A stretch of DNA of 9,363 bases from a virus (taxonomy: Duplodnaviria > Heunggongvirae > Uroviricota > Caudoviricetes), in the IMG/VR virus record IMGVR_UViG_2657244940_000008, positions 1 to 9,363 of that record. The stretch is one strand, 5' to 3'. The translations under genes and the position numbers were made by a program. Shown here in pieces: positions 6,295 through 9,242 of the stretch (the stretch's first letter is position 1; each line of letters opens with the position of its first letter). The notes beneath the pieces are model-generated. The model did not search any database and was not told the origin of the DNA. It saw nothing but the letters and a program-made list of their open reading frames with translations.

Positions 6295-6621
6295 TCATAA
6301 CACCGTCGGACAACGCAAATCGTAAATCAGCACGGAAACAGAAAACGGCAACTCCCCCTGCACGAGGTCTTCCCGCTCCGCAAGATCCGGATTCCGGTAC
6401 AGCATCCCGGTCAGTCGCATGGCAGCCCCCTTCATCCGGGTTAATGCCTCACCCGGGATCAGTTCACCGTCCTCACGAATCACTTTATCCCGGCTGCCCT
6501 GAATGTAGGCCAGCAGCACGGCGGTAGCCTGACGAACCTTGTCCATCAGCATGTCATCATCCGCGTCATGGTCGACACGCAGATGTGCCTTGATCTCTTC
6601 CAGTGTCAGTAATGCCGTCAT
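6295..6621 (-). CDS. gp6-like head-tail connector protein (108 aa)
   Basis: Size and position immediately after the head gene; start overlaps the upstream stop as ATGA; sequence has the character of HK97 gp6-type connector proteins (by eye, no search). Confidence 0.7.
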   Translation of the reverse strand: MTALLTLEEIKAHLRVDHDADDDMLMDKVRQATAVLLAYIQGSRDKVIREDGELIPGEALTRMKGAAMRLTGMLYRNPDLAEREDLVQGELPFSVSVLIYDLRCPTVL

Positions 6622-9242
6622 TTTCCGTCTCCTGCATCCCGCCCACGTTTTGCAGCCAGGGTCCAGGCTGATGAATGAGCTTCTCCGGGTTTATCTTCGG
6701 TCATACTGTTGCAGTGCCACAACGAGCCCCCCCACGTCACCGTATCGCCGGGGTGGTAGGTTTCACCGGCTCTGAACACACCGCGGTAGAGCATCACCGG
6801 CAGGGAAAATGTTTTTTCCGTACGCAGGCCACTGCTCTGCCGGACCACCACAGAGAACAACCGCTCACCCGTCATGCTGACGTCAATATCGGCCACCCCG
6901 TCAACCAGGCATTCCCATCCCCGCATCCCGTGCGTTTTTTCATACGCCCGCCAGAGTCCGCCCTGGTGTGTGGCATACGTGCCCCGGGGAAAGGATTTTT
7001 GATCGTCAATGGCGGGGAGTATTTCCAGTGCCGTGGCATCACGCCCGTCCTGCGGAGCCGGCAGGGCACTCACCGCATCCAGAACCGCCTTCTGCAGAAC
7101 ATCCGGATCGTAGTCACGACCGTCGCGCGGAACAGGAATATGGCTTACGGCCTCTTTCACCATCTGCTCAAGCATCGGACGCACATCATCCGGGGTGATA
7201 CTTTTTCCGTCCGCCGGTAGCGGAATATTTGCGACCGCATCATTCACCGCCTTCTGCAGAACATCGGGATCATAGTCACGACCGTCGCGCGGAACAGGAA
7301 TATGGCTTACCGCCTCCTTCACCATCTGCTCAAGCATCGGACGCACATCATCGGGAGTGATACTTTTACCGTTCGCCGGTACAGGAATATTTGCGACCGC
7401 ATCATTCACCGCCTTCTGCAATACTTCCGGATCGTAGTCACGACCATCACGCGGAACAGGAATATGGCTTACCGCCTCCTTCACCATCTGTTCAAGCATC
7501 GGACGCACATCATCCGGGGTGAGACTTTTACCGTCCGCCGGCTGCGGAATATTTGCGACCGCATCATTCACCGCCTTCTGCAGAACATCGGGATCATAGT
7601 CACGACCGTCGCGCGGAACAGGGATATGGCTTACCGCCTCCTTCACCATCTGTTCAAGCATCGGACGCACATCATCCGGGGTGAGACTTTTACCGTCCGC
7701 TGGCTGCGGAATATTTGCGACCGCATCATTCACCGCCTTCTGCAGAACATCCGGATCGTAGTCACGACCATCACGCGGAACAGGAATATGGCTTACCGCC
7801 TCCTTCACCATCTGTTCAAGCATCGGACGCACATCATCGCCCGTCACGCACTTCTGTAATACCACAGACAGGGAAGCCAGTTTTTCTTCAAACATTTGTG
7901 CCTGCGAGGCAATCTTCCCCTCAAATGTGCGCTGTAAATCCGCCAGCACCGCAGCGAATTCTTCTCCCAGTGCACGAATAATGGACAGTTCCCGTTCCGT
8001 CATTTTCTCAGTATCCCCCCTGAACATCGCTTTCACTGCATCATGCTCTGTTTCGCTTATGGCCTTATTACCGTCAGATGCGCCGTCAGGCAGTTGTGAT
8101 GAAACTGTTTTCCCGGTCGACGCGAACGGATCCTCACGGGCATCACGACGGGACAGCGCCTCCAGACTGTAGTTCTGCTGCTGAAGATACAGTGCATCAC
8201 CGCCGGCCAGGGGCGGCAGGTTCTCCCGTTTACGGGCCTCATTGGGCGTGAGAAGCGTATTTTTCACCGCATCCCCCAGCGTTTTCATGCGCCGCTCACT
8301 GTCCATTCTCAGCAGCGTGGTGACATCAAATTCTGTACTCTCGTTTTCCCCTGTTTCCAGCGCCTCATCCAGTAACAGCTCAATGGACTCAATCAGCGTC
8401 TGCAGACACTGGGAATAATACTGCTGCTCCAGCGCCTCCACGTTGTCACTGGAAGGCGGCTGGCCAACGCCAATCTTGTAGGCCGGGACACGGAACACCG
8501 AACAGACAATTTCAGCCGTCATTTTCAGCTGTTCCACCGTCTGCGCATCCACCGGTGAAAACGTCGTGGGGTTATATTTCGCCCCGTTGCTCAGGATCGC
8601 CGTTTTCCCCGCATTTTCGCCGGTATACCCGCTGTCCCAGTTGCTCTTCAGTTTTTTCGCATTTTCTTCCGTTATACTGCCGGGGATCTCAATCACCCCG
8701 GACGGCCTGCCGCCATTTCTGAAAAAAGACGTTGAATTTGCCTGAATATGATGCCCCTGCGTGGCCGCCAGCCCGGCAGCATACACCGGCGGCAGCCCCA
8801 CAAGCGGATGAAAAAAACAGTTAAACCGGTCGTGGATCACTTCCCTGGCAGGCACCGTCACCGCCTCCGTGATCCCGCAGTTCCGGTCCGGTGTAATGCG
8901 ATAGAACACCTCGCCGTCATCCGCCACCAGAGGTTCAACCCGGCTCCAGTCCAGAATACGCAGTTCTTTGATCTGCCCCCGGGCATTACGGATTTTCAGC
9001 ACCACCGTATTGCCGTGACGCAGTTTGGCGTTCAGCCACAGTTCAAAAAACTGGATGCGGTTCTGCTGGGCGTTGGGACGACGACAGAGGCGGGCAATAT
9101 CCCCCCGGCGCGTTTCCCTGCGTATCCCATGCGCATCCGTCTGCATAAGACGCAGCCGCATTTTGGCGATATCCTGGGATATCAGCGAAATACATGCAAA
9201 CACCGCATGAAAGGAGAGGACGGCTTCAGGATCGGCTTTCAC
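6618..9242 (-). CDS. HK97-family phage portal protein fused in frame to a tandem-repeat region and a C-terminal aromatic-rich domain (874 aa)
   Basis: N-terminal ~385 aa show portal-like blocks (AVFACISLISQDIA, FFELWLNAKLRHGNTVVLKI, NAGKTAILSNGAKYNPTTFSPVDAQ, EIVCSVFRVPAYKIG). The same frame then runs through ~5 copies of a 54-aa repeat and a unique C-terminal domain. Only available start is GTG at 9240-9242. Stop overlaps the next gene start as ATGA (6618-6621). Confidence 0.8.
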   Translation of the reverse strand: MKADPEAVLSFHAVFACISLISQDIAKMRLRLMQTDAHGIRRETRRGDIARLCRRPNAQQNRIQFFELWLNAKLRHGNTVVLKIRNARGQIKELRILDWSRVEPLVADDGEVFYRITPDRNCGITEAVTVPAREVIHDRFNCFFHPLVGLPPVYAAGLAATQGHHIQANSTSFFRNGGRPSGVIEIPGSITEENAKKLKSNWDSGYTGENAGKTAILSNGAKYNPTTFSPVDAQTVEQLKMTAEIVCSVFRVPAYKIGVGQPPSSDNVEALEQQYYSQCLQTLIESIELLLDEALETGENESTEFDVTTLLRMDSERRMKTLGDAVKNTLLTPNEARKRENLPPLAGGDALYLQQQNYSLEALSRRDAREDPFASTGKTVSSQLPDGASDGNKAISETEHDAVKAMFRGDTEKMTERELSIIRALGEEFAAVLADLQRTFEGKIASQAQMFEEKLASLSVVLQKCVTGDDVRPMLEQMVKEAVSHIPVPRDGRDYDPDVLQKAVNDAVANIPQPADGKSLTPDDVRPMLEQMVKEAVSHIPVPRDGRDYDPDVLQKAVNDAVANIPQPADGKSLTPDDVRPMLEQMVKEAVSHIPVPRDGRDYDPEVLQKAVNDAVANIPVPANGKSITPDDVRPMLEQMVKEAVSHIPVPRDGRDYDPDVLQKAVNDAVANIPLPADGKSITPDDVRPMLEQMVKEAVSHIPVPRDGRDYDPDVLQKAVLDAVSALPAPQDGRDATALEILPAIDDQKSFPRGTYATHQGGLWRAYEKTHGMRGWECLVDGVADIDVSMTGERLFSVVVRQSSGLRTEKTFSLPVMLYRGVFRAGETYHPGDTVTWGGSLWHCNSMTEDKPGEAHSSAWTLAAKRGRDAGDGK
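7066..7840 (-). repeat. Tandem direct repeat array, 162-bp unit, about 4.8 copies, in frame inside the portal-fusion ORF
   Basis: The landmark aacaggaatatggcttac recurs at 7131, 7293, 7455, 7617 and 7779, an exact 162-bp period. Copies are near-identical at nucleotide level. Each encodes DVRPMLEQMVKEAVSHIPVPRDGRDYDPDVLQKAVNDAVANIPQPADGKSLTPD, itself two diverged 27-aa half-repeats. Confidence 0.9.

What the first reader, a model, noticed from the sequence alone, without database searches (positions are those of the whole stretch)
6618..7040. C-terminal domain of the portal fusion carries a carbohydrate-binding-module-like aromatic motif
The last ~45 residues (ETYHPGDTVTWGGSLWHCNSMTEDKPGEAHSSAWTL) have the spacing of CBM5/12 (chitin-binding type 3) domains: Y-x-x-G-D-x-V-x-W/Y-x-G-x-L/Y-W/Y ... 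P-G ... W. A degenerate partial copy lies upstream (GTYATHQGGLWRAYEKT). A glycan-binding domain on a repeat stalk is typical of decoration or receptor-binding proteins, not portals. Match is by eye only.
Basis: inference. Interest (0 to 1): 0.55.

Follow-up and report, generated by a model that had tools for sequence, protein, structure and literature searches.

The report
CBM5/12-like tip of phage fibre protein
The end of this "portal" gene really does encode a small chitin-binding-type fold, but it belongs to a fibre-like phage protein that is normally a separate gene and is joined to the portal here only by one extra G; the feature is real, fairly ordinary and already flagged in databases for its relatives.

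Summary

The 139-aa domain is the tip of a 461-aa module: a 50-residue helix, ten 27-aa helix-linker units, then a beta head. In distant relatives this module is a separate 200-500 aa protein, often with a collagen-like stalk, encoded between the portal and the gp6-like connector.

In E. coli a G5/G6 tract (window 8015-8020) decides between two genes and a fusion. Both states are common: 712 vs 1338 copies in complete genomes.

The window copy is a dead remnant. It is 5'-truncated against chromosomal yfaX and has no terminase or capsid genes.

Glycan binding is unproven. The canonical WW/YW aromatic pair is absent, and the domain is as conserved as the portal, which is atypical for a receptor-binding tip.

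Verdict: real, a new member of a known kind, modest interest.

The parts
6621..7037 (-). C-terminal beta-rich head domain (aa 736-874) of the fibre-like module. It is the conserved unit of a large family.
   Evidence: phmmer against 1.84 billion representatives found 5597 clusters at E<=1e-3 and 285 at E<=1e-30, nearly all with the domain at the C-terminus of 200-500 aa proteins. AF2 pLDDT is about 90-95. It matches phrog_16748 end to end.
6648..6791 (-). CBM5/12-like three-stranded unit (aa ~818-865). Landmarks are Y829, G832-D833, V835, W837, G839, W842, P852-G853 and W860. The Pfam match covers aa 824-846 (window 6705-6773).
6897..6995 (-). Upstream degenerate CBM5/12-like unit (aa ~750-782; SFPRGTYATHQGGLWRAYEKTHGMRGWECLV).
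   Evidence: hhalign of the N-half against the C-half of the family alignment gives E 1.1e-3 over 37 columns. The model has three strands in the same order. W764, W776 and C778 are nearly invariant.
6792..6896 (-). Beta-hairpin insert between the two CBM-like units (aa 783-817).
   Evidence: Model strands E56-64, E68-75 and E80-86 with pLDDT about 90.
7038..7841 (-). Acidic stalk (aa 468-735). It consists of five 54-aa (162-nt) tandem repeats, equal to ten 27-aa 'helix + PxPxDG(K/R) linker' units.
   Evidence: TRF finds period 162, 4.7 copies, 93% matches at 7084-7838. AF2 predicts ten helices of 12-17 residues, separated by non-helical linkers of mostly 12-13 residues. Copy number varies among prophages: ORF2 length = 245+54n, n=0-6. 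Charge is 50 D+E against 30 K+R.
7842..8003 (-). N-terminal ~50-residue helix of the module. It begins at ATG 8001-8003 (M414, MTERELSIIRALGEEF...), which is the start codon of the separate gene in G5 alleles.
   Evidence: AF2 helix at residues 3-53, pLDDT 83-90. Free-standing homologues start with M[ND]ERELS. In BP-4795, ORF59 starts at this ATG.
8015..8020 (-). G6 homopolymer tract that puts the portal and the fibre module in one frame. G5 alleles end the portal at a TGA that overlaps the ATG (ATGA).
   Evidence: Alignment of the window with BP-4795 and three E. coli prophages. IMG/VR has 40 G6 contigs and about 77 genuine G5 contigs. Complete E. coli genomes hold 1338 G6 and 712 G5 places. 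Phage 2851 is G6; phages 1717 and BP-4795 are G5.
8004..9242 (-). Portal protein proper (HK97-type, PF04860), 5'-truncated. About 43 N-terminal codons are missing, so the GTG at 9242 is not the real start.
   Evidence: Pfam Phage_portal E 9.9e-81, aa 13-341. Upstream sequence diverges from BP-4795 and the E. coli prophages just before QQGVKADPEAV.
9248..9363 (.). Fragment of the chromosomal gene yfaX, abutting the truncated portal gene. This is a deletion junction, and terminase and capsid genes are absent.
   Evidence: 100% match to yfaX in 3895 E. coli genomes. Portal homology ends at 9251, and no complete genome carries this junction.
6295..6621 (-). gp6-like head-tail connector gene. Its ATG overlaps the stop of the module (ATGA).
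   Evidence: Pfam Phage_connect_1 E 7.8e-8. The sequence is read. The same neighbour follows, directly or within one to four genes, in the distant relatives where the connector is recognisable.

Best explanation
Window 6621-7037 (minus strand) encodes the globular tip of a fibre-like accessory virion protein of BP-4795/1717/2851-type lambdoid siphophages.

Anatomy (shown). The module is aa 414-874. It has a ~50-residue N-terminal helix, a stalk of ten 27-aa helix-linker units, and a 139-aa beta head. The head is built from two CBM5/12-like three-stranded units around a beta-hairpin insert. The second unit keeps the CBM5/12 landmarks: Y..GD.V.W.G..W...PG...W.

Trimer (inferred). Relatives replace the stalk with collagen G-X-Y repeats, so the protein is most likely a trimer.

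Gene organisation (shown). The gene sits between the portal and the gp6-like connector. Ancestrally it is a separate cistron coupled to the portal by an ATGA overlap. In this window, and in about two thirds of E. coli copies with the same 39/40-nt flanks, a sixth G in a G5 tract fuses it in frame to the portal.

Function (inferred). The head most likely acts as a low-specificity carbohydrate-binding knob. It would be displayed on the head or neck of the virion and would help the particle stick to a conserved polysaccharide. Binding would use an aromatic-rich surface (W837, W842, Y829, W860) that differs from the classical chitin-binding WW face.

This copy (shown). It cannot function in a virion. 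The portal gene is 5'-truncated against yfaX, the terminase and capsid genes are gone, and the gpM-like gene has an internal stop.
For: - Motifs and coordinates.
- Sequence profile.
- Viral structure library: 20 hits at E<=1e-3. Seven of the 13 that carry a name are 'Collagen triple helix repeat' proteins; tail proteins and ChiC_BD/CBM5/12-named proteins follow just below that cut-off. PHROG gives weak hits to tail-fibre families.
- Family breadth and architecture.
- Collagen Pfam hits in 5 of 51 members.
- Synteny in five distant loci, with a separate portal and separate fibre gene. Some loci carry extra collagen-like fibre genes and a GDSL esterase in the same slot.
- G5/G6 polymorphism.
- Remnant status.
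Against: - This copy scores below Pfam's gathering threshold, and only the first half of the profile aligns.
- The aromatic pair used by the aligned chitinase modules is replaced by S846-M847, and by E-x in the family consensus.
- The head domain is 49-63% identical across phages whose connector and head-closure proteins are only 27-39% identical. That makes it as conserved as the portal, unlike typical receptor-binding tips.
- Portal C-termini lie inside the capsid in all solved portals (general knowledge). The fused form would therefore place the module in the capsid lumen, not on the surface.
- No experimental paper on this protein was found.
- Trimer state and virion location are inferred, not shown.
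Confidence: 0.6

Rival explanations
1. The CBM5/12-like fold is real but is not a lectin. The head would serve as the C-terminal trimerisation and folding nucleus of the stalk (like the T4 fibritin foldon or collagen NC1 domains). Alternatively it would be the surface that docks the protein onto a conserved virion component.
For: - The domain is as conserved as the portal and far more conserved than neighbouring neck proteins.
- The stalk is interchangeable (PxP repeats, ELPxPEPLPDI repeats, collagen G-X-Y) while the head is constant.
- The canonical binding aromatics are absent.
Against: - At 139 aa per chain, the head is much larger than known foldons.
- The best structural matches are bona fide carbohydrate-binding modules and tail-fibre tips.
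- Aromatic residues W764, W776, Y829, W842 and W860 are invariant or nearly so, as expected for a sugar-stacking surface. They could equally be core residues.
Confidence: 0.25
2. The fusion is the functional form. The module would be tethered to the portal crown inside the capsid as an axial internal structure or ejected protein, comparable in position to the P22 portal barrel or SPP1 gp7. The CBM-like head might bind peptidoglycan after ejection.
For: - In-frame fusions are abundant: 1338 copies in 752 complete genomes.
- The fusion occurs in a named Stx phage, 2851.
- It occurs independently in a distant lineage with a different stalk (P0150, 1237 aa).
- The gene directly follows the portal, in the slot that SPP1 gp7-type portal-bound proteins occupy (general knowledge).
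- The stalk is strongly acidic.
Against: - All five distant relatives examined, and one third of E. coli copies, encode it separately.
- Adjacent genes with an ATGA overlap are fused by any +1 indel, so fusion need not mean interaction.
- Collagen-like stalks, the CBM-tipped architecture, and neighbouring fibre and esterase genes are hallmarks of external fibres.
- The internal ATG could still yield free protein from the fused allele.
Confidence: 0.12
3. The resemblance to CBM5/12 is a chance aromatic/glycine pattern with no structural meaning.
For: This copy is below the Pfam threshold with a half-length match. No Foldseek PDB hit reaches E<=1e-3.
Confidence: 0.03

Closest known systems
CBM5/12 chitin-binding modules (Pfam PF02839), e.g. 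Serratia marcescens ChiB, Streptomyces griseus ChiC ChBD (2d49), Pyrococcus ChBD1 (2rts), Erwinia EGZ (1aiw)
   Different: - It is not attached to a glycoside hydrolase.
- It is duplicated, with a beta-hairpin insert, to form a 139-aa head.
- The WW/YW binding pair is replaced by S-M, and by E-x in the family.
- The score is just under the Pfam cut-off in this copy.
- No binding data exist.
Phage collagen-like fibre and tail-fibre proteins with CBM5/12-like tips (e.g. Pseudomonas phage Pa193 gp47, Agrobacterium phage 7-7-1 fibres, many BFVD 'Collagen triple helix repeat' proteins), and Anabaena contractile-injection-system protein All3316 (7b5h)
   Same: An elongated repetitive or collagen stalk ending in the same small beta unit. 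All3316 is the best sequence hit and the best Foldseek hit in the PDB.
   Different: The gene lies in the head-neck part of the morphogenesis cluster, between the portal and the gp6-like connector, not among the baseplate and tail-tip genes. The head is unusually conserved. It is fused to the portal in many E. coli copies.
Head or neck fibres of other phages: phi29 gp8.5 head fibre, T4 fibritin (wac) and Hoc, SPP1 gp12 collagen-like decoration protein (comparison from general knowledge)
   Same: An accessory fibre or decoration protein, trimeric in gp8.5, fibritin and gp12 but not in Hoc. The gene is embedded among head and neck genes. The stalk is made of repeated helix-turn or collagen units with a globular distal domain. 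Stalk length is dispensable and variable.
   Different: No sequence or fold relationship to any of these was detected. The attachment site on the virion is unknown. None of them is known to be fused to a portal.
HK97-type portal proteins (PF04860)
   Same: Residues 13-341 of the ORF are a bona fide portal (E 9.9e-81).
   Different: The region in the finding is not part of the portal family. In relatives the portal ends at 445-460 aa and the module is a separate protein.

Membership tests
CBM5/12 (Pfam PF02839, CAZy CBM5 and CBM12) | Profile score at or above Pfam's gathering threshold (26.2 bits) | tested here: not met
   The window copy scores 18.8 bits in the full ORF, 23.6 bits on aa 735-874 and 25.2 bits on aa 728-874, with profile positions 3-25 of 44 only. 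Orthologues score 26.9-30.7 bits and pass. 41 of 51 members match at E<=1e-3.
CBM5/12 (Pfam PF02839, CAZy CBM5 and CBM12) | Small three-stranded antiparallel beta fold of about 40-60 residues | tested here: met
CBM5/12 (Pfam PF02839, CAZy CBM5 and CBM12) | Sequence landmarks Y-x-x-G-D-x-V-x-[YW]-x-G-x-x-[YW]-x-[AC] ... P-G ... W | tested here: met
   Y829, G832-D833, V835, W837, G839, W842, C844, P852-G853 and W860 are present. Most are invariant or nearly invariant in the family.
CBM5/12 (Pfam PF02839, CAZy CBM5 and CBM12) | Solvent-exposed aromatic pair after the second strand (WW or YW) that stacks on the polysaccharide | tested here: not met
   In HMM alignments, Chi60 'AQWWTKG' and ChBD1 'AKYWTTS' align to the family consensus 'aneetkd', which is C-N-S-M-T-E-D in the window.
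CBM5/12 (Pfam PF02839, CAZy CBM5 and CBM12) | Demonstrated binding to chitin, cellulose or a related glycan | not testable with these tools
   This needs pull-down or glycan-array experiments with purified aa 736-874.
Phage portal protein (PF04860) | The finding's region belongs to the portal fold (wing, stem, clip, crown) | tested here: not met
   The portal profile covers aa 13-341 only. The region in the finding belongs to a module that is a separate gene in relatives and in G5 alleles.
Collagen-like trimeric phage fibre proteins (PF01391-containing) | G-X-Y triplet repeats in the stalk | tested here: not met
   The window stalk is made of 27-aa helix + PxPxDG units, with no Collagen hit. 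Homologues with the same head carry G-X-Y stalks: P0244, P0252, P0267, and 5 of 51 members hit PF01391. The protein therefore works like such a fibre but is not a collagen-repeat member.

The most novel reading that the evidence does not exclude
The G5/G6 tract just upstream of the module's ATG may not be mere decay. It could be a contingency or recoding switch that sets how much portal is made with a covalently attached fibre module.

G6 alleles would make only the fusion, perhaps plus free module from the internal ATG. G5 alleles would make a plain portal plus free fibre. A -1 slip could add a minor fraction of fusion in G5 alleles. Candidate slip sites are the rare-codon cluster AGG-GGG-AUA and the A-AAA-UGA-C context.

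A dodecameric portal carrying trimeric CBM-tipped fibres, in the capsid lumen or threaded outside, would be a portal accessory of a kind not described before.
Probability: 0.1. Interest if true: 0.7.

Novelty: new member of a known kind. Interest (0 to 1): 0.35.

Why it matters
The protein is very common. The junction region occurs at about 2,900 places in 1,245 of 5,426 complete E. coli genomes, including O157 Stx phages and ST131 prophages. Despite this it is annotated only as 'phage portal protein', often as a 'frameshifted' pseudogene.

Recognising it as a separate fibre-like protein with a CBM5/12-type tip would have three uses:
- It would correct a systematic annotation error.
- It would explain the length heterogeneity of these 'portals', which comes from 1-7 stalk repeats.
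- It would point to a possible extra adhesion device on Stx-converting siphophages.

The fold assignment itself is ordinary. Pfam already flags it in orthologues, and some NCBI records are named 'carbohydrate binding domain protein'.

Tried and rejected
- NCBIfam gave no family for the module or its homologues.
- Pfam hits in the stalk (TetR_C_35, DUF4244, FliG_N, Glycos_trans_3N) have no significant individual stretch, or one very short one. I treated them as repeat-driven noise.
- Direct phmmer of the domain against PDB sequences gave only a marginal hit to All3316, E 0.055. The family profile improved this to 0.0077 and added chitinase modules at E 0.02-0.3.
- Four literature searches found no paper on this protein. 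The one paper opened mentions portals only generically.
- Conserved programmed frameshift between portal and module: rejected as a family feature. The frame offset is not conserved (E. coli -1, L131 +1), and some relatives have a 300-nt gap or other genes in between. It survives only as a low-probability idea for the E. coli alleles.
- Sequencing error as the cause of G5 versus G6: rejected as the general explanation. Both states are abundant in finished genomes, they co-occur in single genomes in different prophages, and they largely follow haplotypes. Three identical-flank haplotypes contain both states, so occasional errors or recent slippage cannot be separated.
- Head domain as a typical variable receptor-binding tip: disfavoured by its conservation.
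Full report
**1. What is in the window.**
The minus strand carries the late-gene block of a lambdoid siphophage of the BP-4795 / 1717 / 2851 type.
- The genes are an HK97-type portal ORF (6618-9242), a gp6-like connector, a head-closure protein, an HK97-gp10-like protein, gp17-like tail completion, a major tail protein with an Ig-like C-terminus, the tail chaperones G/T, a tape measure and a gpM-like gene.
- tblastn finds the 874-aa ORF at 89-96% identity in the best-matching records, many of them Stx-converting phages.
- In intact relatives the order is TerS, TerL, protease-MCP fusion, small ORF, portal (plus module), connector.

The window copy is a decaying remnant.
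- Portal homology stops at about 9251, roughly 43 codons short of the real start.
- Bases 9248-9363 are chromosomal yfaX.
- No complete E. coli genome has this junction.
- The gpM-like gene carries an in-frame stop.
- The 'GTG start' at 9242 is therefore an ORF-calling artefact.

**2. Check of the observation.**
Both motifs are at the coordinates given.
- Pfam CBM_5_12 is the only hit on aa 735-874: E 5.4e-5, 23.6 bits against a gathering score of 26.2, profile positions 3-25 of 44. On aa 728-874 it scores 25.2 bits.
- Orthologues from Klebsiella, E. albertii and metagenomes (59-69% identical) score 26.9-30.7 bits and pass.
- 41 of 51 aligned family members match at E<=1e-3.
- Public records already carry PF02839 on many orthologues, and some are named 'carbohydrate binding domain protein'.

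Structure prediction agrees.
- An AF2 model of aa 728-874, built on 51 homologues, has mean pLDDT 80, with about 90-95 for model residues 50-140. In the 461-aa model the whole head is about 90-95.
- The top Foldseek PDB hits are All3316 of the Anabaena injection system and then chitin-binding domains: 2d49 with TM 0.70 and rmsd 2.4 A, 2rts, ChiB and ChiC. No E-value reaches 1e-3 because only about 48 residues match.
- The upstream 'partial copy' aligns to the C-terminal unit in a profile-profile comparison (E 1.1e-3, 37 columns) and has the same three-strand pattern in the model.

**3. What the domain belongs to.**
A search of 1.84 billion representative proteins with aa 736-874 found 5597 clusters at E<=1e-3.
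- Almost all are 200-500 aa proteins that carry the domain at their C-terminus.
- Typical members have an N-terminal amphipathic helix and then a variable stalk. The stalk can be PxP-containing 27-aa repeats, ELPxPEPLPDI repeats or collagen G-X-Y triplets. The conserved head follows, and a short collagen-like tail comes after it in some.
- Five members of the 51-sequence alignment hit Pfam Collagen. This implies trimers.

The 461-aa module in the window (aa 414-874) is predicted as follows:
- a helix at residues 3-53 (pLDDT 83-90);
- ten helices of 12-17 residues, separated by non-helical linkers of mostly 12-13 residues;
- the beta head.

At DNA level the stalk is a 162-nt repeat with 4.7 copies. 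Among prophages the module length is 245+54n aa, with n = 0-6.

**4. Fusion or separate gene.**
In five distant loci the portal is a separate 445-460 aa protein. The module is its own gene downstream of the portal. A gp6-like connector follows it directly or within one to four genes, where that protein is recognisable. In some loci a collagen-like fibre (745 or 391 aa) and a GDSL esterase occupy the same slot.

In E. coli, alignment shows a single-base difference in a G tract at window 8015-8020.
- G5 (BP-4795, 1717): the portal ends ...FRGIL(R/K)K-TGA, and the stop overlaps the ATG of M(N/T)ERELS... as ATGA.
- G6 (this window, phage 2851): the two are in one frame.

Counts for the two states:

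| Source | G6 (fused) | G5 (two genes) |
|---|---|---|
| IMG/VR contigs | 40 | about 77 genuine |
| Complete E. coli genomes, identical 39/40-nt flanks | 1338 places in 752 genomes | 712 places in 370 genomes |

- Single genomes can hold both states in different prophages.
- The state mostly follows haplotype, but three identical-flank haplotypes contain both.
- PGAP annotates G6 copies as an intact 861-aa 'phage portal protein' and G5 copies as 'frameshifted'.
- One distant lineage has an independent fusion (P0150, 1237 aa).

I conclude that the two-gene state is ancestral. The fusion is a frequent, apparently tolerated, one-base variant.

**5. How it probably works.**
- Shown: the fold assignment, the modular anatomy, the synteny and the allelic fusion.
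- Inferred: the trimeric state (from the collagen stalks of homologues), display on the virion, and carbohydrate binding.

The stalk-plus-knob architecture points to an external accessory fibre on the head or neck that sticks to a polysaccharide. So do the structural neighbours among tail-fibre tips and collagen-repeat phage proteins, and the fibre and esterase genes sharing the slot.

Three facts temper this reading.
- The WW/YW pair that forms the binding face in the aligned chitinase modules corresponds to S846-M847 here, and to E-x in the family.
- The head is 49-63% identical across loci whose portals are 44-54% identical and whose connector and head-closure proteins are 27-39% identical. 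It evolves like a core structural element, not like a host-range determinant.
- Portal C-termini are inside the capsid in all solved portals (general knowledge). In the fused state the module would therefore be luminal, unless it is also made from the internal ATG.

Two rivals follow from these facts. The head could be a trimerisation nucleus or virion anchor rather than a lectin. Or the module could be a portal-tethered internal protein.

**6. Comparison with known systems.**
The domain works like, and is predicted to fold like, a CBM5/12 module. Strict membership fails on two points: the Pfam threshold for this copy, and the canonical aromatic pair.

Its nearest functional analogues are CBM-tipped collagen-like phage fibres. 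By genomic position it resembles head and neck fibres such as phi29 gp8.5, T4 fibritin and SPP1 gp12, but no homology to those was detected. PHROGs files the module under 'portal protein' (phrog_2271, phrog_1289) or unknown (phrog_16748, phrog_8767). This reflects the fusion annotation, not a portal fold.

**7. Novelty and verdict.**
The CBM5/12 call is correct but already present in databases for orthologues. No publication on the protein was found.

The useful additions are these:
- The module is a separate fibre-like protein family.
- A G5/G6 tract toggles its fusion to the portal in thousands of E. coli prophages.
- Its head is unusually conserved.
- The copy in this window is non-functional.

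I classify it as a new member of a known kind, with interest 0.35. The most novel reading not excluded is that the G tract acts as a recoding or contingency switch producing portal-tethered fibres. I give that reading a probability of about 0.1.

Noticed in passing
window 9248-9363 and 9243-9251: The prophage is cut off inside the portal gene and joined to the chromosomal IclR-family gene yfaX. Terminase, protease-MCP and the first ~43 portal codons are missing. No complete E. coli genome in the collection has this junction.
   Followed up: yes
window 50-391 (minus strand): The gpM-like minor tail gene has an in-frame stop at codon 33, where BP-4795 has E. This is another sign that the element is a decaying remnant.
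   Followed up: yes
window 4368-5084 (minus strand): The major tail protein carries a C-terminal Ig-like domain (Pfam Ig_3, Ig_2, I-set). It is a second accessory domain on a structural protein of this element, of a kind that might bind carbohydrate.
   Followed up: no
window 8001-8030 (minus strand); L001 10220-10245: In G5 alleles the junction reads AGG-GGG-AUA-CUG-AGA-AAA-UGA-C. This is a cluster of rare codons, followed by an A4 run before a weak UGA-C stop. A -1 slip at either site would recreate exactly the G6 fusion product. The idea is untested, and the frame relation is not conserved in distant relatives.
   Followed up: partly
L129 4749-6986; L128 1433-3291: In distant relatives the slot between the portal and this gene also holds a 745-aa or 391-aa collagen-like fibre protein and a GDSL/SGNH esterase. 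This suggests a variable 'fibre cassette' in the head-neck gene block.
   Followed up: partly
E. coli RefSeq loci L002, L003, L134: PGAP marks G5 copies of the gene, and copies with other indels, as 'frameshifted' portal pseudogenes. Two-gene alleles are therefore systematically annotated as broken.
   Followed up: partly
L132 5255-6001 (Klebsiella variicola): The head domain is called as a 136-aa ORF with no stalk. An opposite-strand ORF is called over the region where the stalk should be. This is possibly a miscalled or disrupted stalk.
   Followed up: no
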